DNA of 32,183 nt from a virus: the IMG/VR virus record IMGVR_UViG_3300017752_000078. One strand, 5' to 3'. The stretch's first letter is position 1, and each line of letters opens with the position of its first letter. This document shows positions 2,002 through 24,910 of this stretch, in pieces. The notes below the pieces were generated by a model. It did not search any database, was not told the origin of the DNA, and worked only from the letters and a program-made list of their open reading frames with translations. Made by a program: the position numbers and the translations under genes.

Positions 2002-2162
2002 TATGCTGGCTCCTTCTGTTCATATCCTGCTTGTTGATTTTCAAAACCATATTCTGTATCGCAATCAGCACAATAGTATTCCCAATATTGGCCTCTTACA
2101 CCACTCTTGTATTGGGTCGTAGCAGGATTGTTCATACAGATATCACATTCTTGATCTGTCAT
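2001..2162 (-). CDS. Small zinc-ribbon-like protein (CDIC...CADC)
   Basis: I prefer the ATG at 2162 because of the SD AAAGGGAGAAAAAAGATG. An in-frame ATG at 2192 sits at the predicted TSS of P5. There are two CxxC pairs. It ends in ...KEPA. Confidence 0.65.
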   Translation of the reverse strand: MTDQECDICMNNPATTQYKSGVRGQYWEYYCADCDTEYGFENQQAGYEQKEPA

Positions 2163-2198
2163 CTTTTTTCTCCCTTTTTGTTGTTTGTTCATATTATC

Positions 2199-2226
2199 AG
2201 TATAGCATATATGGTAAATGCGTCAA
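2199..2226 (-). promoter_or_regulatory. sigma70-type promoter P5 (TTGACG-16-TATACT, TGC extended -10)
   Basis: The minus strand reads CTGGTTGACGCATTTACCATATATGCTATACTGATAATATG. Its spacer is paralogous to those of P2 and P4 (TTACCA core). Confidence 0.6.
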
Positions 2227-2253
2227 CCAGGCAAAAAGTCGCATAAAATGGGC

Positions 2254-2280
2254 AAAAAAAAGCCCCCAATCAAGGGGGCT
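2254..2280 (-). terminator. Rho-independent terminator
   Basis: The minus strand reads AGCCCCC-TTGATT-GGGGGCT followed by T8. Confidence 0.85.
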
Positions 2281-2353
2281 TATAGAAAGTAAGAAAGAAT
2301 AAAAAAAGTTATTCTTTCTACAAGATCAAAGCGGATTAGCACTCCCTTGTATT
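2254..2353 (-). ncRNA. Candidate small RNA of about 100 nt, running from promoter P6 to the terminator
   Basis: No ORF with a usable start. Three predicted hairpins: TACAAG/CTTGTA; the 11-bp AGAAAGAATAA/TTATTCTTTCT (2292..2319); and the terminator hairpin. A pyrimidine-rich single-stranded stretch (UACUUUCUAUA) lies between the last two. Confidence 0.45.
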
Positions 2354-2359
2354 ACTTTA

Positions 2360-2387
2360 ATAATAACACAGAAATAGGATGCGTCAA
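2360..2387 (-). promoter_or_regulatory. sigma70-type promoter P6 (TTGACG-16-TATTAT, TGT extended -10)
   Basis: The minus strand reads CAGTTGACGCATCCTATTTCTGTGTTATTATTAAAG. Confidence 0.55.
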
Positions 2388-2458
2388 CTGGCGAATGAGC
2401 CGCATAAGTTGGGGGTTTTTGGTGGTACCGTACAACCTGTGAGTGAGATCTACTTGGG

Positions 2459-2516
2459 AAAAAGGGGCGGACTTCATAGGATATATGGCATATACAGACT
2501 AAACAGTGCCGCCCCA
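2459..2516 (-). terminator. Candidate terminator: long hairpin plus T5
   Basis: The minus strand reads GGGGCGG(c)ACT ... AGTCCGCCCC followed by TTTTTCCC. The 7-10 bp GC stem encloses an inner TATAT-GCC-ATATA hairpin. Confidence 0.4.
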
Positions 2517-2935
2517 AGGGGTGTCTAAAATGTCATTTTAGAACTGCGTCCAGGTGACTTATAAGTCAAACATTCTGCAAGGAGTGTAAAGACAACACCC
2601 TGACGCAGTCGTATTTATGAGTGGTGATCTGTGACGGGTTTCAAAGGCGGCCACGCCACCTGAAGATTCGCCGTGCTCATCTTCATTTTTTTCTTTGTGG
2701 GAAGACTCTATGTAGATAGGAAGATCAGAGTCCACCTGTTTCCAGGTGGTGACACTATGTGAGTTAGGTTAGTCGTCATCCAGATGTTTCCTTGTGCGGG
2801 TGGCATTGATCCTTGCCGTACATCATCGTTTTGTTTAAACCTGGCTGGTGGTCAGTCCAAGTCCCGCTCTGCCATAATGAATTGTGCCTGTTGACTGTCG
2901 CGTTCTTGCTGGTGAGTGCTCCGCGTTGTGGTGTC

Positions 2936-2958
2936 TGTGTTTGCCTGTGTTTGCCTGT
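2936..2958. repeat. Tandem 10-bp repeat (tgtgtttgcc, 2.3 copies)
   Basis: Read directly as ctgtgtttgcctgtgtttgcctgt. On the minus strand this is ACAGGCAAAC ACAGGCAAAC ACAG, at the predicted 5' end of the P9 transcript. Confidence 0.8.
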
Positions 2959-2964
2959 ATCACA

Positions 2965-2994
2965 AGTATATATCCTAAACACCTGAAATGTCAA
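2965..2994 (-). promoter_or_regulatory. sigma70-type promoter P9 (TTGACA-16-TATATA or TTGACA-18-TATACT)
   Basis: The minus strand reads CCATTGACATTTCAGGTGTTTAGGATATATACTTGTG. Confidence 0.5.
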
Positions 2995-3052
2995 TGGTTA
3001 TTGGTTTGGTTGGTAGGGTTTGGTCTCTGCTTTGGTCTTCAAAGCACCAAAA

Positions 3053-3247
3053 TCACCAAAACCACCTTACCAGTTTTTTGGATTCCAATTTATGACTTTT
3101 GACACGACGACTGATGTGATAAGAGAAGACGCAGTAGTGCCAAGGATCACCAGGACATTTCACACTGCCTTTGCCTGAACCGTTCTTGGTGTCACAACGC
3201 CAGTGGCCAAGTTGGCGTACGATCTCAAGGAACCTGTCCTGTCTCAT
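3053..3247 (-). CDS. Small Cys/His/Trp-rich protein, hypothetical
   Basis: 64-aa ORF. Its ATG overlaps the stop of the J-like gene (TAATG coupling). It contains HWRC...KCPGDPWHYC. Confidence 0.45.
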   Translation of the reverse strand: MRQDRFLEIVRQLGHWRCDTKNGSGKGSVKCPGDPWHYCVFSYHISRRVKSHKLESKKLVRWFW

Positions 3248-5118
3248 TATGAGGCTATGGTGTGTCCAGTCACTGCCACGAAGTTGGATCGCCTGTCCAG
3301 TTCGTTCCTGGCCGCCACCCTCACGTCGTAGTTGCTACCTGTCAGGACCCCCTGTATGAAGAACTCCGTGTCGTTGGTGATGCCCGCCGTGGTGAATGTT
3401 GAATCTGAACTCAGTTTGAATTGCACGATGTATTCAGTGGTGAAAGGATCAGTGGACGCCGTCCAACTGGCCTTCAATCTAACGATGGTGCTGTTTGATG
3501 ACAGATATCCGCCTGTGTTGACATTTAGATTCTGTGCTGAACCTGACGCCAAGGCGAGACCACTGGGTGCCGCCACCGTGAATGGGTCAGGTAGGCTGGT
3601 TGTTGGTCTGGTGTAGTTGGTGCCTGAACCGTCTATGGCGTATGCACCTGACTGGTGCTCCAGTGCTGTTATCTCTATGTTGCCTGCGGTGTTGAGACGC
3701 ATATCCATTATCCTGAATACAGCGTCAAGGCTGAGGTTTGAATTCTGTACCCTTATCAGGTCGCCAACCGCGGTGTTTGACGTGGCCAGGTTTGTGGCGA
3801 AACTGACCAATTTCTCTGAACGTGATCTCCTCACGAAGACCCTGGCGTACTGCTCAGCGATCCGCCTGTCAGCGATGGTTGGCAGTGTGATCCGCTTCTC
3901 CAATCTTATGCTGTTGTCCTGTGACAGGAATGTGTTGTCGTCACTGCTACCTATGTCAGGGAAGGCCACCTCGTTGGGTTCGTAGTTGGCCGTGTTGTCT
4001 ATGTAGGTGACCACACACCTGTTGCATTTGTGTTGTTTTGATTCTCCCTCTATCTGCATACCGCCAATGATGTGATCATTGGTCACCGTGAAAACTGTGG
4101 TTGGTGATGCTGGCGTGGCAGTTATGTCCGTGTCGTCTCCCCCATTCTCAACCTTGAGGAAATACTTGCCCTGCTGGTATGGCATTATGCCCCTGAAACC
4201 TGCCAGGATGATCTTGCAGTTGCTCATCAGGTTGTTGGCTGTGTCTATGACCGCATCACAGGTGAATGCCCTGGATGTGTCTGCGTTGCTATAGGTGACC
4301 ATCGTGAAACATTGGTCAGCCGCTGATTTGAAACTGGTCCAGTCAAAAACATCGTTTTCAAGTCCCTTGCCGTACCTGTCATTCCGTAGGTAGTCCACCA
4401 ACACGTTCACAGGATTCTGTGAATATGCCCGTGTGTCTGATGCGTAGGCCGTGTTGTATGATGCAGGGTTTATGCCCGTGACATCTAAAATCTTCTTGCC
4501 CTGTATCTGGATCCTGATCTGCGGAACGCCACCTGAGTAGGGATTGTTGTCCGCGTCTTCCTGTGTCTCAATCTTCTTCCATTCAAATCTCAATGCGATG
4601 TAGCACAGTCCCCTTAATCTGTGATTAGAAGTCCAGTTGGGTGCTTCCTGTAATAATGTTGAGACAGTCTGGTCGTCCCTGCCATCAAAGAACTGTGCCT
4701 TCAATCTGTCCTTGTACCTGCCTGATCCCACTGTGGCCTGTACACCGTGTGCGTATGAACTCAATGTGATCTCGTTGTTGTCTATGAATAATTTTGTCAT
4801 CGCGTTGCACTGACCTTCACTCAACACCATCGCCACATATAGATATTGATTGGTGGTGCCGTTGGTGGATGTGAATACTCTTGTGCCGCCAACCTGTCTC
4901 TCGCCGTACACCACTGGTATCTCCTTGACCGCACCTTCTTGGTTGAGCAGTACACCCTGTATGGCCTGTGTCTGATCCTGTCCTATGTCGTAGTCTGGTA
5001 CATCTGTGCTGGCACCAAAAGGTGATGTCACTGCTGAAACCACACCGCTGATGACCTTGCCAACTCCCTTGACCACGCCCTTGACCGCCTTGGTGATTGA
5101 TCTTACTACTCCGCCCAT
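3247..5118 (-). CDS. Lambda gpJ / GTA g15-like tail-tip (host-specificity) protein with a C-terminal fibronectin-III-like domain
   Basis: Its motifs parallel lambda J: NPVNVLVDYLRNDRYGKGL (lambda has ...LTHPRYGMGKRL) and FTCDAVIDTANNLMSNCKIILAGFRG (lambda has ITCNAYLTTQRKAWDVLSDFCSAM). The C-terminus is FN3-like (EYIVQF...YDVRVAARN). I prefer the ATG at 5118 (MGGVVRSITK...), which overlaps the stop of the upstream gene by 13 nt. Confidence 0.9.
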   Translation of the reverse strand: MGGVVRSITKAVKGVVKGVGKVISGVVSAVTSPFGASTDVPDYDIGQDQTQAIQGVLLNQEGAVKEIPVVYGERQVGGTRVFTSTNGTTNQYLYVAMVLSEGQCNAMTKLFIDNNEITLSSYAHGVQATVGSGRYKDRLKAQFFDGRDDQTVSTLLQEAPNWTSNHRLRGLCYIALRFEWKKIETQEDADNNPYSGGVPQIRIQIQGKKILDVTGINPASYNTAYASDTRAYSQNPVNVLVDYLRNDRYGKGLENDVFDWTSFKSAADQCFTMVTYSNADTSRAFTCDAVIDTANNLMSNCKIILAGFRGIMPYQQGKYFLKVENGGDDTDITATPASPTTVFTVTNDHIIGGMQIEGESKQHKCNRCVVTYIDNTANYEPNEVAFPDIGSSDDNTFLSQDNSIRLEKRITLPTIADRRIAEQYARVFVRRSRSEKLVSFATNLATSNTAVGDLIRVQNSNLSLDAVFRIMDMRLNTAGNIEITALEHQSGAYAIDGSGTNYTRPTTSLPDPFTVAAPSGLALASGSAQNLNVNTGGYLSSNSTIVRLKASWTASTDPFTTEYIVQFKLSSDSTFTTAGITNDTEFFIQGVLTGSNYDVRVAARNELDRRSNFVAVTGHTIAS

Positions 5119-17859: not shown

Positions 17860-18168
17860 TTATTTCTCTTCCCAAGGTAATGGTCCTGTGGACTCTTCAT
17901 CTGTTGGTGAATCCTGTTGGCCCAACCAATTTTTTCCAAGGAACATAAGCATACGAGCATCGCCCGCCAATGCTTTTTCAAACTGTGCCCGTCTCAGACT
18001 CTTCTTACCTTCTGCCTTGCCCTTCTCTATGAGGTTCTTGAATCTCTTCTGTAGTGTGGTCACTGATGTGCCAACGCAGTCTGCTATCTCCTCGTAGGTG
18101 CAGTGCATTGAAGCCAGTTTGAATATAAGGTCGTGATCTAATTTGTATGATTTCTTCTGTGCGTCCAT
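17860..18168 (-). CDS. terS: Terminase small subunit (HTH)
   Basis: 102 aa directly upstream of terL. It has an HTH (CTYEEIADCVGTSVTTLQKRF) and a basic helix. Confidence 0.7.
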   Translation of the reverse strand: MDAQKKSYKLDHDLIFKLASMHCTYEEIADCVGTSVTTLQKRFKNLIEKGKAEGKKSLRRAQFEKALAGDARMLMFLGKNWLGQQDSPTDEESTGPLPWEEK

Positions 18169-18518
18169 TATAAACTTTTATCCTCGCATACGATCCTGAA
18201 ATGTCTTGCGTCAGTGTCACCCTGTGATGTGACTATCTTGCAACGTATGTTGTACACGTTGCCAGAGGTGCCACCCTGTAATCTGATGTTGACCAACTTG
18301 CCATTAGTGACCTGTATGTCTGTTGATGCATTGGTTGGGTGTACCAATGGATCTGTGTCACCAGTTGGTGATGTGATAGTCACTGTTGGTGTACCATTGA
18401 TACTGTCACCTGTTGTCAGGTAATCTGTGAAATCAAGTCCATACTGTATGTTAGACTCTGGATCCTTCGTGATGAACAGACCGTCGTTGTCTTTTTTGAA
18501 TCCTGTTAAGTTTGCCAT
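18168..18518 (-). CDS. Small beta-rich virion or fibre-associated protein
   Basis: 116 aa, TAATG-coupled on both sides. From memory, the pattern KDPESNIQYGLDFTDYL...GGTSGNVYNIRCKIVTSQG recalls a family found beside fibre genes. Confidence 0.5.
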   Translation of the reverse strand: MANLTGFKKDNDGLFITKDPESNIQYGLDFTDYLTTGDSINGTPTVTITSPTGDTDPLVHPTNASTDIQVTNGKLVNIRLQGGTSGNVYNIRCKIVTSQGDTDARHFRIVCEDKSL

Positions 18519-20461
18519 TAATGATTGCTCCTAACCCTTGGTGTTGAAAATCTGTTTGTCATTGGTGGTATGTTCAATTTTAAACTCCGTGTTTCTTGCG
18601 GTACAAGGTGTGCCCTTGTCTCTGCACTAACGATATTTACTCTATTTTCTGCCATTACCAATGTTTGTGTATTTTCAACTGGCACGACAATGGTCCTTGT
18701 TTCCGCATCAACCTTGATTGTGTTGAAAGGATCTGCTTGGAAAAACAGCCGTCCAACCTGTAAAGTGCTGGCTAATGCAGTCAACGCCGCCAAACCTGCA
18801 GGTTTGAATCTTGGCGATAGGTCTAATTCTGTAGCGGCAGTGATCGTTGCTTGACCTGAAGGTTTGAATGTTGGTTCAACCGCGAATGTAAAGGCTACAT
18901 CAATGTCAGCAAATGTGTCTGTTATCGCACTCGCGGTTAAAACTGGTGTGAACGCACCTGTTATGACAATAGGTGTGTCATCTAATGCGTATGATATGTT
19001 TGCAGTCAGTGATGGTGACATCGCTGACGTGATTGCTATGGTGACGTCTATGACACCTGATGCTGTTGGATCTATAGTGAACGTTGAAACAAGATTGGCC
19101 GCACCTGGCTCTTCCAATGCTGTGTCCTCAACCACAGTGAATGATCCTGTGTACGATACAGTGTCTCCCAGTTTGAATGTTGGTGCCAGCAACATTGATC
19201 CCGCTGACTCAACCACATACTGTTTCTCCCAAAGGTCGTTTGGCCAGTTGTCCCAACTTGCTTCATTGCCCAACCAACTCTCAACAGGCCAGTCATCCCA
19301 GGCTGTCGTGGCCAGGAATGTCCAGGTGTATTCACCTTCAACAGTCACGAAGTCGTCAACACTGAAACCTGTTTCAAAGTATGTGTTTAGATTGAAACTG
19401 TCCCAGGTGTAGTCACCCGTGATGTCGTAGATCACACCTGCGGAACTGGCCGCACTGGCTATGGCAGTGAAGTTGTCAATCACAGCAGGTTTGAATGATG
19501 GTGTTATGCTTAAAGTTGCAGTGCCCTGCAGTGATGCTGTCGCCAAAGCAAGATTGTTTGTTGATACCAACACGTTGGCGTTGGCCTGTAAATTTTTTGT
19601 TGCACCTAACTTGAACGTAGGTGTCGTTGCTGTTGTTGTACCAACTGACATATTGCACACAGCAAATTTCTTGTTGATACTGGTCTCGTTGACACTGAAG
19701 TTGGATGACACACTTGATTCACCAAGTCTTAGTATTGCTCCTTGTACAGAGATAGAGAATGTGCCCTGCAGTGCAGGATCGTTGTCTCCACCGTTGCCAT
19801 CAATGATGTGATCGTCACCCTCCCAAGTCCTCGTCAGCACTCCAGGATTTGAAACTGAATGTACGAATGTCTCTGGTGACGTGCCAATGAAATTGACAGA
19901 GATGTTGACTTTGGATAGGTTGTTGCCTGTTGTTGCTTGATTCTGATTGGCAGTGTCTAAGGTGACACCACTACCAGTGACTTTCAGAGTCCTTGTTGGA
20001 AATTGCGTTGATGTTGGCAGGCCCCTGTTGCCGTTGTAGACCACACTGTTGCTACTGCCGTCAAACAGTCGCCATTGGCTTGAACTGATGTACAGTCCAT
20101 CAACCTGGTTTGTGAAGTAAGTGGTCTCAGTGTCGTAGGCGTTGTTCAAAGACGAAGCGGAAATGTTGACAGTGGTTGGTCCAACGAAAGTGCCCGTGCA
20201 CCTTGTTGATGGTATGCCACGATGATCTTGTAAGAATGGATCACTGGCCTGTGCCTGCATTCCAATAATGGATTGGCCTGACTCAGGATTTGGACTTGAA
20301 TTTAACTGAACTGTATTTGTACCGTTTGCATTGGTTGTCCACAGTTTACGACCACTGCTGTTGCTGAAACCTGGACGAGATGTGTTGGTCTGTTGAAGAC
20401 CCACCTCAAGACCATAACTGGTATCAGTAGTGGTATATCGTACGACTCTGGTTGTTGACAC
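18518..20461 (-). CDS. Large virion or fibre-like protein with periodic PxFK motifs
   Basis: 647 aa with a GTG start behind a strong SD (GGGAGGTAATCCTCGTG). It is Ser/Thr/Asn-rich. Confidence 0.75.
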   Translation of the reverse strand: MSTTRVVRYTTTDTSYGLEVGLQQTNTSRPGFSNSSGRKLWTTNANGTNTVQLNSSPNPESGQSIIGMQAQASDPFLQDHRGIPSTRCTGTFVGPTTVNISASSLNNAYDTETTYFTNQVDGLYISSSQWRLFDGSSNSVVYNGNRGLPTSTQFPTRTLKVTGSGVTLDTANQNQATTGNNLSKVNISVNFIGTSPETFVHSVSNPGVLTRTWEGDDHIIDGNGGDNDPALQGTFSISVQGAILRLGESSVSSNFSVNETSINKKFAVCNMSVGTTTATTPTFKLGATKNLQANANVLVSTNNLALATASLQGTATLSITPSFKPAVIDNFTAIASAASSAGVIYDITGDYTWDSFNLNTYFETGFSVDDFVTVEGEYTWTFLATTAWDDWPVESWLGNEASWDNWPNDLWEKQYVVESAGSMLLAPTFKLGDTVSYTGSFTVVEDTALEEPGAANLVSTFTIDPTASGVIDVTIAITSAMSPSLTANISYALDDTPIVITGAFTPVLTASAITDTFADIDVAFTFAVEPTFKPSGQATITAATELDLSPRFKPAGLAALTALASTLQVGRLFFQADPFNTIKVDAETRTIVVPVENTQTLVMAENRVNIVSAETRAHLVPQETRSLKLNIPPMTNRFSTPRVRSNH

Positions 20462-20479
20462 GAGGATTACCTCCCAGTG

Positions 20480-20950
20480 TTAAGCGAGACTGATGCTTAG
20501 GTTACCAGATGATATTGTAAATTGGTCTCCTGATGAAACCGTTTTTGATGTAGTCAATGCACCATAGAACAAGATGTTTCCACTTGTGCTCGCATCTACT
20601 AAGGCAATGTGTGTGACCACTTGTCCTGTTGAACCCGCTGTCTGGTAGTTGGCAGTCGCCACTGGAAATGAAACTGTTGCGTTTGTTTCAATAGTACCAG
20701 TAGTGGTAGTACCAGCCGCCGCGAAAGTCACTGACTGTCTTGCATATGATCCGTTGTTGATTTCGTAGTATCCCCACTTGGATGTTGCATCTGTACCTGT
20801 AGTGTTTGACTCAAGAGCCGCCGCTACACCTGATCCTGAATCTGCGAACAATGCCACATAAACCGTTGAAGGTGCACCGTAGGCCGCACCAGGCGATCTC
20901 AAAGTGTGATCTAATAATTTGTCTTCTAAAAAGTTTGAAGCCGCTGACAT
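20480..20950 (-). CDS. Conserved fibre-associated phage protein
   Basis: 156 aa, SD AAGGAG. From memory, the pattern NFLEDKLLDHTL...VYVALF...YARQSVTF...VTHIALVDA..GNILFYGAL...GDQFTISSGNLSISL matches a family common next to tail-fibre genes. Confidence 0.65.
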   Translation of the reverse strand: MSAASNFLEDKLLDHTLRSPGAAYGAPSTVYVALFADSGSGVAAALESNTTGTDATSKWGYYEINNGSYARQSVTFAAAGTTTTGTIETNATVSFPVATANYQTAGSTGQVVTHIALVDASTSGNILFYGALTTSKTVSSGDQFTISSGNLSISLA

Positions 20951-20990
20951 AATTGTTTTCTCCTTTGTAATATTACAATGTTATTTATTG

Positions 20991-22235
20991 CTATGCTTGT
21001 ATCAATCTCATCTTGGTTGTGCCATAAGTCAGTATCGCACCTGAACTGCCCCACCTGTGTAGTCTAACTTCTTCATTACCGCTCAAGGACTCTGAAAAAT
21101 TCAACACCTCTGACAGTGTGTTTGTGGAATGCACATATTTCAACACTATGATCCGTGTGTTGCCAGGATCATAACCAGCGAACAAGAACACGTCATTGGT
21201 TGCTCCAAGGAAACAACAAGTTCCTGATGTGTCACCGCCTGTGCCAAAGTTTGACACTGTCACAATGTTTGACCTCTCCACGCTTGAGTCACCCGCCTTG
21301 TATGAGTCAAACACGAATTTGTTTGCGGACCCGCCACCTTCTCTCCTGATGAATATGGCTATGTCGTTGAAACCAACAGAGTTGTATGGTGGTGTGGCAT
21401 AAGAATCAATTTCGTAAGAATTAGAACCAAAGTTAGTGCTGTTGGCTGTGTCAAACTGTGTCATCGTCTGGCTGTTGGTTGGCGAACCTGAAAACAGTGT
21501 AACTGCCTGGGCACCTGCCGTGCTCAGGTCAATCTTATATGGTTCCAGTTTTTCTCCCTGGCCAAAACGATCGTTAAGGAAGAAAGGTGTGTCGTTGTCA
21601 ACGAATCCTGGCACGCCGTGTAGACTGCCATAGTAAAGACTGGTGTTGGTAGAACTCTCTGTTGACACTGTTGGTGTCTGTTCAAAATGATGACCTGATG
21701 TTTCTATTGTCTCGCCAAGTTTTTGCGTTCTGATGTTGTTGTAGCCTGTGCTGTCAGAATCTCTTGACACGAATATTGGTGTGGCGTGCTCTGTCCTGTT
21801 GGCAGTGCCTCCAGTTGCGTGTGAAACCGTTGAACCTGAAATGCTGAATATGTGATACACGTTGCTGTTGTTGTCTCTGCCATCATACAACACCTTGCCA
21901 TTCTGTAGTGGCGCCACCAATCCGTAGAATGAACTGGCCCCATAATTTGGGGTGCCAACATCACTTATGATTATGTTGCCTTGGCTGGTGATTGACAGTG
22001 TGCCAGAGTTGTTCCGCATCACATCATATTGGATCTTGTCGTTTGCAAAGCCCTGGTCAAGTGCTGATACCATCACACCATACTCGTTGTTGAATGGTGC
22101 GAATCCTATGAAGTGATTGACTGCCGCATTCCTTGTGAATGTGTTGTCGTTGCTACCGTCCCAGCCAACAAATGAATTGGCACCTGTGGCTGTCGTGTCT
22201 TGTGCTAAAATGCTTTTTGCGAATCCTATTGGCAT
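20991..22235 (-). CDS. Hypothetical virion-appendage protein (beta-rich)
   Basis: 414 aa, SD AGGAG. No family recognised. Confidence 0.65.
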   Translation of the reverse strand: MPIGFAKSILAQDTTATGANSFVGWDGSNDNTFTRNAAVNHFIGFAPFNNEYGVMVSALDQGFANDKIQYDVMRNNSGTLSITSQGNIIISDVGTPNYGASSFYGLVAPLQNGKVLYDGRDNNSNVYHIFSISGSTVSHATGGTANRTEHATPIFVSRDSDSTGYNNIRTQKLGETIETSGHHFEQTPTVSTESSTNTSLYYGSLHGVPGFVDNDTPFFLNDRFGQGEKLEPYKIDLSTAGAQAVTLFSGSPTNSQTMTQFDTANSTNFGSNSYEIDSYATPPYNSVGFNDIAIFIRREGGGSANKFVFDSYKAGDSSVERSNIVTVSNFGTGGDTSGTCCFLGATNDVFLFAGYDPGNTRIIVLKYVHSTNTLSEVLNFSESLSGNEEVRLHRWGSSGAILTYGTTKMRLIQA

Positions 22236-22242
22236 AGTGCTC

Positions 22243-23091
22243 CTACGCGAATGCTTTGGCTATGGTTGCTATCTTGTTGGTGCCATCGTTGAATATGGTC
22301 ACAACGTCTATGGCATTGGCGTCCGTTGACAGTGTTGGTGTGCCTCCCGCGAATTTCGTAGAAGTGAAAGCACCTGTGTTTGAACCCGTGCCATCCTGTG
22401 TGATGATTAGCGTCACACTGCCACCTGTTGGTAGATTTGAGATCGTGAATGTCGTGCTGTGTGCCAGTGTCACTGTGTGTACACTGGCCAAAGAGGCATC
22501 AACCGTTATGCCCGTTGAACTTGTCAGTGCGTTGATGTCTTCCTTGTAGTTCTTGTTGAACCTCAAAGTATCATCTATGTCTATAGTGTCTCCTGAACTG
22601 GCTATGGTTGAACCTGTGATTGTTAGGTCGCCGTTGCCGTTGTTGGTGATGTATCCTGAGTCATTGGTGAACATTGACACAGCACCTGACTTGTTGGTCA
22701 GTGTGTCAGAACTTGATGCTGTTATGAAACTGGTAAGTGTTGGTCCTGTGATAGTGACTGTGTCACCTGACACCGCTGTTGTGATGTTTGTGCCACCCGC
22801 TATCTTGAATGTCTCGCCTGCGTTGACTGCCGTTCCTGATGAATCATCCCCTACGAAAGTCGTGGCCGCCGCGGCTGTGCCAGTGCTGTCTGTGCCAAGT
22901 TCAAATCTTGCGTTTGATGAGTTGTACTTTAGAATCTGGTTTGCTGAAGGCGAATCAATGTTGAACATATCAATGATTGCATTGACGTTGTCAACATTCT
23001 GCTTGATGTCTGGTCGTGCCAATCTTGGTGAATCTGTACCTGCGTCTAAGTGTGTGGTTCCTGCTTTTGTTCCTGAGGGCCAAGTTGCCAT
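22243..23091 (-). CDS. Tail fibre protein (short)
   Basis: 282 aa, SD AAAGGAGA. It shares the FVGDDSSG..ETFKIAGGTNITTAVSGDTVTITGP module with the 1508-aa fibre. Its C-terminal domain (...SVTLIITQDGTGS...) is typical of fibre tips. Confidence 0.8.
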   Translation of the reverse strand: MATWPSGTKAGTTHLDAGTDSPRLARPDIKQNVDNVNAIIDMFNIDSPSANQILKYNSSNARFELGTDSTGTAAAATTFVGDDSSGTAVNAGETFKIAGGTNITTAVSGDTVTITGPTLTSFITASSSDTLTNKSGAVSMFTNDSGYITNNGNGDLTITGSTIASSGDTIDIDDTLRFNKNYKEDINALTSSTGITVDASLASVHTVTLAHSTTFTISNLPTGGSVTLIITQDGTGSNTGAFTSTKFAGGTPTLSTDANAIDVVTIFNDGTNKIATIAKAFA

Positions 23092-23119
23092 TGTGTTCGT
23101 CTCCTTTAGTGTTATTTAA

Positions 23120-24910
23120 TTAGATCGTGTCTGTCTTTATAATCCTATAATAGTTGCCACAGGTCAATAGAGCAACACCAGTGCCCATAGGCGTGATTGA
23201 TATGTTGCCTTCTGGCACCGTGCCAAGATTGACTGAATTGGCGTGCCTCGTGAATGTGGGTTGATCACTGGTCTGGTGATTGACTTCAAACACACTGATG
23301 TAGGCGGTTGTTGATTTACGCCACACCACCGCGAAGTAGTCTCCACTCAGTTGTGCCATCTTGATTGAATCTGGTTCGTATGCGGTGTTGGTTGAATCAC
23401 TGCTGTTGGTGTCTGAAACAGTGACCGCTATGTCGCTGATGCCCGTGTCAGTGGTTTTGAAATTAGACTGATCGTTATACCATACCATCCTGTCCTCAAC
23501 CAAGGTCTTGTCTGACGCACCATTGGTGTTGTAGGTTTGGGAGGTTAGTGGATTTGGGTTGCCAGTCATCCCATAGATGTATGGCACGCCCACTTGATCA
23601 GTGGCACCCGTCACATCACCATACAGTGCTATGATGCTGTCCTGTATCTTGATCATCTGTAGTTTGTTGTTCTGCTCAACGGCCCTATTCACGTCATCTG
23701 GCTTGTTCAACAGCAGATTGACACCGTAGTTGGCGTCCGTGTTGTTGGAACCTTCCCAACTGGCCATATTGCCCCACCAAAAACCATAGTAAGGATACTG
23801 GTCAGTGGCTATGCCTTTGGTGGCCGCTCCCCAGTCCTCAAAGAACCAAACCGTGTTGTGCTTAATGGCGTTGGCTGAGAGTGAGTTTAGATTGTCACCT
23901 CTCCTTGACACGTCGCTGGCCAGGGTGTATCTCCTGAAAGGCACCGTGTCAGTGTTGTAATTAAGTGTGGGTGATGTGTCATCAATCAAGAAGTCAAAGT
24001 GTGCCCCATACCTGCCGTTGGCACCAACGTTGGCCCCGTTGTGAGACAATTGTGATGTTGGACTCATCCAGTTGTTCCTGCCCACCACGTATTGGTCTTC
24101 GTATGTGTATTGTGCCTGACCGCTACCTGAATAGGAATCGTTGGTGTCCAAGAATAGTTCAAGTGCTGAACTGGGACTGCTTATGAGAGCATTGATGTCA
24201 TCCGCCCTCCACACGTTCATCAATGGCACCCTTTCGTAGGTTACTTGGTGACTTGCTCTCATTGGTTGTGCGAAGAAGATGTAGTGTGTGTGTGCGTTGG
24301 CTGGCACGGCCAGTTTGCCGTTTCCAGCGTCGCTGGCGTTGGGCCAATTATTTCCGTTGTGTGTGCTGTGATGATGTCCCAATGGTGCCCTGACCACATA
24401 ACTCCATTGCTTGAATGCTTGGTCCGTCTGTATGGCGTCTGTTGAGCCATCGCTGAAGTGGTTGAGATCAGATATCTTGCCTCCATCAGTGACACTGTCT
24501 AAAGATTCCTGGAAAGCAACCAAGCAACCGTTGTCCTCAATGCCCGTGGTCACCACCGTGGTCTGTATCTTGCCCGCGATGTTGATGTCGCCCATCGCGT
24601 ATCCACCGTTTAGGACTATCTGTAATGAGTCAGCGTCTGCCTTGTCAAATTTAACATATCCAAGGTATTGTGTGGTACCCTTGTTGATGGCCAAGAATGA
24701 TCTTGTCTTTGAGTGTGACAGGCTTGATCCCTTGCTGGCTGTCACGTCGTGCGTTGAGTCTAACAATGTGCTGGATTCGTCTTGCCATTGTTGCCAGGCT
24801 GAATCTTCAGTGGCATCATAGGTGCTCCAGTCTAATGTCCTGTTGGTTTCGTCTCCACCACCCAAAGAGCCTCCTGTCTGTATTGCCCTGCCCGCGCCTG
24901 GGAATGTCAT
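23120..24910 (-). CDS. Hypothetical large virion-appendage protein
   Basis: 596 aa, SD TTAAGGAGCAACTATG. It has a His-rich patch (LGHHHSTHNGNNW). No family recognised. Confidence 0.65.
   Translation of the reverse strand: MTFPGAGRAIQTGGSLGGGDETNRTLDWSTYDATEDSAWQQWQDESSTLLDSTHDVTASKGSSLSHSKTRSFLAINKGTTQYLGYVKFDKADADSLQIVLNGGYAMGDINIAGKIQTTVVTTGIEDNGCLVAFQESLDSVTDGGKISDLNHFSDGSTDAIQTDQAFKQWSYVVRAPLGHHHSTHNGNNWPNASDAGNGKLAVPANAHTHYIFFAQPMRASHQVTYERVPLMNVWRADDINALISSPSSALELFLDTNDSYSGSGQAQYTYEDQYVVGRNNWMSPTSQLSHNGANVGANGRYGAHFDFLIDDTSPTLNYNTDTVPFRRYTLASDVSRRGDNLNSLSANAIKHNTVWFFEDWGAATKGIATDQYPYYGFWWGNMASWEGSNNTDANYGVNLLLNKPDDVNRAVEQNNKLQMIKIQDSIIALYGDVTGATDQVGVPYIYGMTGNPNPLTSQTYNTNGASDKTLVEDRMVWYNDQSNFKTTDTGISDIAVTVSDTNSSDSTNTAYEPDSIKMAQLSGDYFAVVWRKSTTAYISVFEVNHQTSDQPTFTRHANSVNLGTVPEGNISITPMGTGVALLTCGNYYRIIKTDTI

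What the first reader, a model, noticed from the sequence alone, without database searches (positions are those of the whole stretch)
2254..2387. Promoter-to-terminator unit encoding a structured RNA of about 100 nt and no ORF
P6 (TTGACG-16-TATTAT) is followed about 100 nt later by a textbook terminator (GCCCCC/GGGGGC plus U8). The interval contains no ATG- or GTG-initiated ORF with a correctly spaced SD. It folds on paper into three hairpins, including a perfect 11-bp AGAAAGAATAA/TTATTCTTTCT stem. A single-stranded pyrimidine stretch (UUCUUUCUUACUUUCUAUA) is complementary to purine-rich AGAAAG/AAGGAG-like ribosome-binding regions used throughout this genome. A phage sRNA acting on RBS regions, phage or host, is plausible.
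Basis: partly seen in the sequence, partly recalled or inferred. Interest (0 to 1): 0.6.

Follow-up and report, generated by a model that had tools for sequence, protein, structure and literature searches.

The report
Phage small RNA with kink-turn hairpin
A marine phage carries a roughly 100-base non-coding RNA gene whose first hairpin is kept almost letter for letter in several unrelated phages and has the sequence signature of a protein-binding kink-turn, so it is a real, undescribed phage RNA family whose job is still unknown.

Summary
On the minus strand, a near-consensus extended -10 promoter (2387-2360) is followed about 100 nt later by a strong intrinsic terminator (2281-2254). The interval folds into three hairpins and has no conserved ORF.

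It is the 5' hairpin (2350-2320). I found it in nine distinct versions in marine viral and metagenome contigs, in three different RNA architectures. One lineage carries two tandem promoter-terminator units and shows almost no protein similarity to this phage.

- The outer stem covaries: 5 pairs change on both sides, and 0 of 500 shuffles reach the observed score.
- The centre is invariant and meets every sequence rule of a standard kink-turn.
- The ORF starting in the hairpin varies from 9 to 47 aa and is frameshifted in some copies.
- Rfam has no match.
- The unit is accessory. Close relatives have nothing in this slot, or two protein genes, one a methyltransferase.
- Pairing with the phage's own ribosome-binding sites is no better than for shuffled sequence.

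Best reading: a trans-acting early sRNA whose kink-turn hairpin binds a protein. This is inferred, not shown. A weaker lead is that the hairpin apex copies the helix H6 apex of gammaproteobacterial 23S rRNA. The scan had not found this element on other DNA.

The parts
2360..2387 (-). Sigma70-type promoter P6: -35 TTGACG (2387-2382), 16-nt spacer, TG (2368-2367), -10 TATTAT (2365-2360). Predicted start near 2353.
   Evidence: scan. The promoter is kept in L003, L038 and L043.
2320..2350 (-). Conserved core hairpin, 31 nt; one more pair, 2351:2319, extends it. Outer (NC) stem: 2350-2345 with 2325-2320. Candidate sheared G:A pairs: G2344/A2343 with G2327/A2326. 3-nt bulge: 2330-2328. Apical (C) stem: 2342-2340 with 2333-2331. 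Loop CUAAUC: 2339-2334.
   Evidence: Nine distinct versions were aligned (A3). Covariation is shown. The model R1 finds it at 57-68 bits. The kink-turn rules come from PMC8191799.
2292..2319 (-). Hairpin 2: an 11-bp perfect stem with a 6-nt U-rich loop. Its sequence is not conserved but a hairpin is always present here in the closest group.
   Evidence: L003, L038 and L043 each have a different hairpin at this place.
2282..2291 (-). Single-stranded linker containing CUUUC, the only linker letters invariant in the four group-1 versions.
   Evidence: There is no sequence-specific pairing to the phage's own start regions.
2254..2281 (-). Intrinsic terminator: an 8-bp G+C-rich stem, a 6-nt loop and a run of eight U.
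   Evidence: Conserved in L003, L038 and L043.
2199..2253 (-). The next copy of the repeated terminator-promoter cassette (P5), which restarts transcription for the 63-codon gene. The sRNA unit sits between two copies of this cassette.
   Evidence: L002 has a single cassette and no unit.

Best explanation
The unit is an independent, accessory early gene for a small non-coding RNA of about 100 nt. It belongs to an undescribed family of marine-phage RNAs.

Shown:
- It has a host-type promoter and a strong terminator.
- Its 31-nt hairpin is held nearly invariant across phages that otherwise differ greatly.
- The hairpin's outer stem covaries.
- G:U pairs fit only the transcribed strand.
- No ORF is conserved.
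- The unit is present or absent among close relatives, in a variable slot at the head of the early region.

Inferred from sequence rules: the invariant centre of the hairpin is a standard kink-turn. It has a 3-nt bulge, tandem G:A and A:G, and a C:G pair before the bulge, with G at position 3n. A 3-bp stem and a loop starting CUAA cap it.

Inferred mechanism: the RNA acts in trans early in infection by binding a protein through this kinked hairpin, as a decoy or a recruiting platform. Hairpin 2, the linker and the terminator would serve as an interchangeable stabilising scaffold. The partner protein and the effect on the host are unknown.
For: - Promoter, terminator and fold.
- Homologues: the exact 20-mer of the core occurs in viral contigs L036 and L037 and in 10 metagenome contigs, L038-L047. 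Indel variants are L098 and L028. A second tandem copy is at L041:1185-1227.
- L043 keeps all 31 core letters, although its tail-tip protein matches the window's at only about 55-60% amino-acid identity.
- The L036 lineage shares only one weak protein segment with the window, and no portal homologue was found in its 82%-complete record.
- Covariation: 93.9% of cells are paired, 5 pairs change on both sides, 0 of 500 shuffles reach the score, and slid controls give 30-57% paired.
- Extending the stem across the bulge adds a pair that breaks in L098 and L028. This fits free bulge positions L2 and L3.
- The kink-turn definition and folding rules are from PMC8191799 and PMC4382518.
- Not coding: the frame is 9-47 aa long and is shifted by a 1-nt insertion in L098.
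- Accessory: present in 2 of 5 near-complete relatives. L002 has an empty slot. L004 and L005 carry an unknown gene plus an FkbM methyltransferase there.
- Tandem diverged paralogues, each with its own promoter and terminator, are typical of trans-acting sRNAs.
Against:
- The kink-turn call rests on sequence rules alone. The whole centre is invariant, so only two variants (L098, L028) separate it from an ordinary bulged stem.
- No L7Ae-type or other RNA-binding protein was recognised among 20 proteins of the phage scanned against Pfam, including the early ones. From my own knowledge, the known bacterial kink-turn binders YbxF and YlxQ are mainly in Firmicutes.
- The host is unknown.
- In the L028/L098 architecture the hairpin lies about 180 nt inside a longer transcript with no canonical terminator. 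There it may be part of a leader rather than a free sRNA.
Confidence: 0.42

Rival explanations
1. Base-pairing sRNA. Exposed pyrimidine-rich or loop sequences would pair with ribosome-binding regions or other sites of phage or host mRNAs, perhaps with Hfq bound at the U-rich 3' module.
For: - The architecture resembles Hfq-type sRNAs: a U-rich single strand followed by a terminator with eight U.
- Weak sub-threshold Rfam matches to VrrA, RyhB and MicA come from that 3' module.
- CUUUC is invariant in group 1, and CU-rich anti-SD-like words (CUCCUUU and similar) lie 5' of the core in the L036 and L041 units.
- The loop begins CUAA. From my own knowledge, this fits the YUNR U-turn seen in antisense recognition loops.
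Against: - The linker and the whole RNA pair with the phage's own 38 start regions no better than shuffles.
- The best antisense runs in the genome are at the chance level.
- The invariant letters sit on both strands of a stem, not in one open stretch.
- The CU-rich word changes place and sequence between architectures.
- Host targets could not be tested because the host is unknown.
Confidence: 0.17
2. Cis-acting leader element. The hairpin would modify the transcribing polymerase, or the fate of the transcript, in the manner of put-type processive antitermination, attenuation or a processing signal. In that case transcripts from P6 would read through the terminator into the early genes.
For: - The element always lies downstream of a strong promoter and upstream of genes on the same strand.
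- In group 1, two hairpins abut with no spacer. From my own knowledge, this recalls the two-stem put RNA of HK022.
- In L028 there is no terminator between the hairpin and the next gene.
- The early region is punctuated by terminator-promoter cassettes.
Against: - The terminator is strong and is followed at once by its own restart promoter, so read-through is not needed.
- Close relatives with the same cassettes lack the element.
- The terminators differ completely between architectures while the hairpin stays the same, so there is no conserved antiterminator pairing.
- Tandem self-contained units argue for a product rather than a leader.
Confidence: 0.15
3. DNA-level feature or recombination scar. 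The interval would be what remains between two copies of the terminator-promoter cassette, or a protein-binding site in DNA, with no RNA function.
For: The unit is flanked by two paralogous cassettes and is an exact indel relative to L002. Cassettes like these could promote module exchange.
Against: - A scar would not keep 31 letters unchanged across lineages while the flanks diverge.
- Compensatory changes preserve a hairpin.
- The invariant G:U pairs would be A:C mismatches on the other strand.
- The site is not a palindrome, as most DNA operators are.
Confidence: 0.05
4. A small peptide gene: the GTG-initiated frame 2342-2280, 20 codons.
For: An SD-like GGGAG precedes a GTG, and the first six residues would be the same in most copies.
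Against: - The SD abuts the start with no spacing.
- Frame length is 9, 11, 11, 13, 15, 20, 24, 39 or 47 codons, with unrelated tails.
- L098 and L028 shift the frame by loop insertions yet keep the downstream nucleotides.
- The only variable core positions are compensated in the stem rather than being synonymous.
Confidence: 0.02

Closest known systems
Standard kink-turn (k-turn) motif, as in H. marismortui Kt-7 and in the k-turn hairpins that Huang and Lilley found in bacterial intergenic RNA motifs (PMC8191799, PMC5061560)
   Same: A 3-nt bulge is followed by G:A and A:G. The pair before the bulge (-1b:-1n) is C:G. Position 3n is G, which predicts folding in Mg2+. Position 4b:4n is C:G. The non-bulged strand reads G-G-A-G as in Kt-7. 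The bulge positions vary (UUU, UAA, UAG) while the G:A pairs never do.
   Different: No structure or probing exists. The canonical helix is only 3 bp and is capped by an invariant loop start, so recognition seems to extend beyond the kink. The RNA is a phage-encoded sRNA, not a riboswitch, an rRNA or a snoRNA.
Phage- and prophage-encoded trans-acting sRNAs made from short promoter-to-terminator units (lambda OOP, DicF, the P1/P7 c4 RNA, the Stx-phage StxS; recalled from my own knowledge)
   Same: It is a small, self-contained transcription unit in a phage, non-coding, ending in an intrinsic terminator, and accessory among relatives.
   Different: Those RNAs act by base pairing with identifiable targets. 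Here no complementary target exists in the phage genome, and the conserved part is a structured hairpin rather than an open seed.
Helix H6 apex of 23S rRNA, E. coli nt 58-69, at the tunnel-exit docking site beside uL23 (PMC13434473)
   Same: The 3-bp stem plus the CUAAUC loop of the core matches the H6 apex of some Gammaproteobacteria in 11 of 12 letters. With the 5' flank the match is 15-16 of 18. In both RNAs these letters form a hairpin apex.
   Different: The 3' flank and the lower stem differ. The covariance-model E-value is only 0.63, and the shuffle test gives 3 of 200. The host rRNA is unknown. Loop variants in other family members were not matched to any rRNA.
HK022 put RNA, a cis-acting processive antiterminator (recalled from my own knowledge)
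   Same: Two adjacent stem-loops lie just downstream of an early promoter and upstream of a terminator.
   Different: There is no sequence similarity to test against. The element is dispensable in close relatives, each unit has its own restart promoter, and in other architectures the hairpin is not promoter-proximal.

Membership tests
Kink-turn motif | Three-nucleotide bulge flanked by a canonical helix on its 5' side | tested here: met
   The bulge is 2330-2328 (UUU; UAA in L098, UAG in L028). It follows the 3-bp helix 2342-2340 / 2333-2331. The definition is from PMC8191799.
Kink-turn motif | Tandem G:A and A:G pairs immediately 3' of the bulge | tested here: met
   G2327/A2326 lie opposite A2343/G2344. 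All four are invariant in 9 of 9 versions. Met at the sequence level only.
Kink-turn motif | Flanking positions that permit folding (-1b:-1n C:G; 3b:3n not Watson-Crick, with 3n = G) | tested here: met
   C2331:G2342 and U2325:G2345 are both invariant.
Kink-turn motif | The tightly kinked three-dimensional conformation, or binding of an L7Ae-type protein | not testable with these tools
   This needs FRET, crystallography, probing or a binding assay. No L7Ae-like domain was found in 20 phage proteins scanned.
Any Rfam 15 family | Covariance-model score at or above the family's gathering threshold | tested here: not met
   There were 0 matches at gathering thresholds over the whole window. In 2150-3300 the best scores were 26-27 bits against thresholds of 50-52 (Ref84, rseX, VrrA), and all rest on the terminator.
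Base-pairing anti-RBS sRNA (c4-type or anti-SD loop sRNAs) | An exposed sequence complementary to the leaders or ribosome-binding sites of target genes beyond what composition gives | tested here: not met
   For the phage's own genes, the linker does no better than shuffles, the body does no better than shuffles, and the longest antisense runs are at chance. Host genes were not testable.
RNA anti-CRISPR (solitary repeat mimic) | Sequence matching a CRISPR repeat that occurs in arrays in bacterial genomes | tested here: not met
   The core 20-mer has 0 matches in one genome from each of 185,579 species. The degenerate 19-letter pattern gives one match, at a coding junction.
tRNA or tmRNA-like element | Cloverleaf detected by ARAGORN | tested here: not met
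   0 genes were found in the window.
Small protein gene | A conserved reading frame with coding-type substitutions | tested here: not met
   Frame lengths are 9-47 codons, the frame shifts in L098 and L028, and the variable positions are stem-compensated.
put-type processive antiterminator | Read-through of downstream terminators that depends on the RNA in cis | not testable with these tools
   This needs in vitro transcription. Context argues against it.

The most novel reading that the evidence does not exclude
The invariant apex of the hairpin (a 3-bp stem plus a loop starting CUAA) would be a molecular mimic of the helix H6 apex of the host's 23S rRNA. That apex is a surface element at the ribosomal tunnel exit beside uL23, and it contacts SecY. 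The phage would make this decoy RNA first in infection to capture a host factor that normally recognises that rRNA hairpin. Candidates are an assembly or docking factor, or a ribosome-directed defence nuclease. The kink-turn would present the apex.
Probability: 0.12. Interest if true: 0.85.

Novelty: new member of a known kind. Interest (0 to 1): 0.6.

Why it matters
Few phage-encoded small RNAs are known outside model phages, and almost all of them act by base pairing. This one is a compact RNA module carried by dissimilar marine phages. It is placed in a hypervariable slot at the head of the early genes, where relatives carry a methyltransferase-containing gene pair. Its conserved part looks like a protein-binding kink-turn rather than an antisense seed.

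If that is right, it would be an RNA-only host-takeover or counter-defence factor of a kind not yet described for phages. It would also give a defined 31-nt bait for fishing out its protein partner. Finally, it adds a new covariation-supported family to the catalogue of structured RNAs.

Tried and rejected
- **Phage database:** near and distant DNA searches of the region against 50,697 phage records found no match.
- **Short-pattern scans:** the 14- and 15-letter scans of viral contigs returned almost only chance matches. The one useful hit was L098. L096, L097 and L177 are not members.
- **Bacterial genomes:** the only pattern hit, in a Roseibium MAG, is a gene junction and therefore chance.
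- **TIGR-Tas and box C/D guides:** rejected after reading PMC12045711. There is no array and no Nop-domain protein.
- **Hammerhead or other ribozyme:** no Rfam support.
- **Kissing of loop 1 with the terminator loop:** four complementary letters exist in the window, but L003 and L043 do not keep them.
- **Pairing of the core with the 16S rRNA 790 region:** 13 of 16 letters are complementary, but the score is within the shuffle range.
- **First duplex scan:** it timed out and was replaced.

Full report
**What is in the sequence**

Every gene in the window lies on the minus strand, and so does this unit.
- The -35 hexamer is at 2387-2382. After a 16-nt spacer come a TG at 2368-2367 and a -10 hexamer at 2365-2360.
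- A start near 2353 and a terminator give an RNA of about 100 nt. The terminator has its stem at 2281-2260 and a run of eight T at 2261-2254.
- RNAfold predicts three hairpins at -33.8 kcal/mol, z = -4.9.
- A 20-codon GTG frame exists, but its SD touches the start codon.

**Setting**

The window is a complete phage genome of about 32 kb, and its first 123 bases equal its last 123.
- It encodes terminase, portal, capsid, tape measure and a J-like tail-tip protein.
- Its nearest cultured relatives by portal protein are Phage DSL-LC06 (42% identity) and HTVC111P-type pelagiphages (about 48%).
- At 45.9% G+C it is, from my own knowledge, well above the roughly 30% G+C of SAR11 genomes, so SAR11 is an unlikely host.
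- The unit lies just after the end of the tail operon (3247) and after a conserved non-coding stretch of about 850 nt. This is at the head of a cluster of strong host-type promoters.

**Relatives**

Thirty-five viral contigs encode a related tail-tip protein.
- Among these 35 loci, only L003 keeps the unit, at 79% identity over 206 nt.
- L002 (88% tail-tip identity, record 99% complete) has one terminator-promoter cassette where the window has two copies with the unit between them.
- L004 and L005 carry an unknown gene of 243-255 codons plus an FkbM-family methyltransferase in the same slot.
- Of five near-complete related genomes, two have the hairpin and three do not.

The unit is therefore an accessory early module.

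**The conserved element**

Searching for the best-conserved 20 letters recovered the following:
- two viral contigs;
- ten metagenome contigs;
- no bacterial genome out of one genome per 185,579 species.

A covariance model (R1) then found a second copy in L041 and L045 and a divergent copy in L028. A degenerate scan found L098.

This gives nine distinct versions in three architectures.
- **Group 1** (window, L003, L038, L043): the hairpin sits 3-5 nt from the predicted 5' end. It is followed by a second hairpin of variable sequence, a short linker with CUUUC, and the same terminator.
- **Group 2** (L036, L041/42/45): units of about 175-195 nt with other promoters and other terminators. A long 5' hairpin domain precedes the core. 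In L041 and L045 two diverged units stand in tandem, each with its own promoter and terminator. This lineage shares only one weak protein segment with the window, and no portal homologue was found in the 82%-complete record behind L036.
- **Group 3** (L098, L028): the hairpin lies about 180 nt downstream of a consensus promoter, inside a longer transcript with no canonical terminator.

**Structure evidence**

On the nine-row alignment A3:
- 93.9% of cells form standard pairs;
- five of the eight outer-stem pairs change on both sides;
- 0 of 500 shuffles reach the observed score;
- sliding the partner by 1-3 columns drops pairing to 30-57%.

The A:U / G:C swap at one pair occurs in both group 1 and group 2, so it arose more than once. 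The invariant G:U pairs fit only the transcribed strand.

The frame that begins at the GTG has 9 to 47 codons with unrelated tails. A one-letter loop insertion in L098 shifts it while the nucleotides downstream stay the same. The element is therefore RNA, not protein and not a duplex-DNA site.

**Kink-turn reading**

The invariant centre has these parts:
- On the 3' strand: a 3-bp helix, three unpaired letters, then G-A, then U and the outer stem.
- On the 5' strand: the outer stem, then G, then G-A, then the 3-bp helix.

This matches the definition of a standard kink-turn, and it also has the preferred C:G pair before the bulge and G at position 3n. These features predict folding in Mg2+ (PMC8191799; PMC4382518).

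The only changes inside the centre fall where a kink-turn tolerates them. Bulge positions 2 and 3 read UUU, UAA or UAG, and the 3' half of the loop varies. A model that pairs through the bulge loses a pair in those two variants.

This is a sequence-level test only. The three-dimensional fold and any protein partner are untested. No L7Ae-like protein was recognised among 20 phage proteins scanned against Pfam.

- The free linker pairs with the phage's 38 start regions better than with random coding windows. Shuffled linkers do as well, however, so this is a composition effect.
- The whole RNA body is no better than shuffles.
- The longest antisense runs in the genome are what chance predicts.

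Other phages in this scan were reported to carry sRNAs that mirror their own ribosome-binding tags. This one does not. Host targets cannot be examined because the host is unknown.

**A lead, not a result**

Running model R1 over the E. coli rrnH operon put its second-best hit on 23S rRNA nt 58-69, with 11 of 12 letters matching (E = 0.63).
- With the 5' flank, 15 of 18 letters match in E. coli, and 3 of 200 shuffles score as high.
- In another gammaproteobacterial variant 16 of 18 match, and no shuffle reached that score.
- These letters are the apex of helix H6. Its hexaloop varies by lineage in Pseudomonadota, and the CUAAUC form was found in 14 of 301 sampled genomes.
- In E. coli, A63 of this loop stacks on SecY beside uL23 at the tunnel exit (PMC13434473).

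Mimicry of this rRNA hairpin is possible. However, I tried several comparisons and the statistics are modest.

**Known families**

- Rfam 15 has no match at curated thresholds. The sub-threshold hits rest on the terminator.
- ARAGORN finds nothing.
- No CRISPR-repeat-like occurrence exists in bacterial genomes.
- TIGR-type guides do not fit.

**Verdict**

It is probably released as a discrete sRNA in groups 1 and 2 (about 0.7) and plausibly contains a kink-turn (about 0.55).

Its function is unknown. Protein binding in trans is my preferred mechanism (0.42 for the full statement). Base pairing with host targets and a cis-acting leader role remain open. It is a new family within a known kind of thing, the phage-encoded small RNAs.

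Noticed in passing
window 2390-3246 (minus strand): The non-coding stretch of about 850 nt between the tail-tip gene and P6 is conserved at 74-97% in L001, L002, L005 and L006. This is better than the sRNA unit's own 79% match to L003. It carries its own consensus promoter at 2994-2965. A long-range G+C-rich hairpin plus a T run near 2515-2459 could end a transcript of about 500 nt. No Rfam match was found.
   Followed up: partly
window about 2445-2420 (minus strand); also L002, L038, L043, L036, L041: A motif of about 20 nt ending in CAGGTTGTA lies 30-70 nt upstream of the first early promoter in both group 1 and group 2 phages, although their proteins are hardly related. It may be a genome end, a packaging site or a regulator site.
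   Followed up: no
window 2199-2262 and 2382-2420; L002:8760-8830: A terminator-promoter cassette is repeated before early units. It consists of a run of C, an A/T-rich stretch with TTATGCG, and then GGTTGAC. Module gain and loss between relatives occurs exactly at these cassettes, which suggests they serve as recombination joints. Group 2 phages have an analogous but different cassette.
   Followed up: partly
L005:3812-5226 and L004:4045-5423: In relatives, the slot taken by the sRNA unit holds an unknown gene of 243-255 codons overlapping a 220-codon FkbM-family methyltransferase gene (PF05050, E = 1e-21). This could be a self-protection or modification module.
   Followed up: partly
L041:1128-1190: The upstream unit of the tandem pair has a second hairpin whose apex again reads GUG followed by CUAAC. 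Next to it is a word identical to the 3' end of 16S rRNA (CACCUCCUUU). The repeated apex hints that the GUG plus CUAA loop is itself a recognition element.
   Followed up: no
window 17860-24910: Several large genes have no PHROG or Pfam match: 18518-20461, 20991-22235 and 23120-24910. Two small ones match fibre and adaptor proteins of podophage GP4 (PF23140, PF23148). No replication gene was recognised among the ORFs scanned.
   Followed up: no
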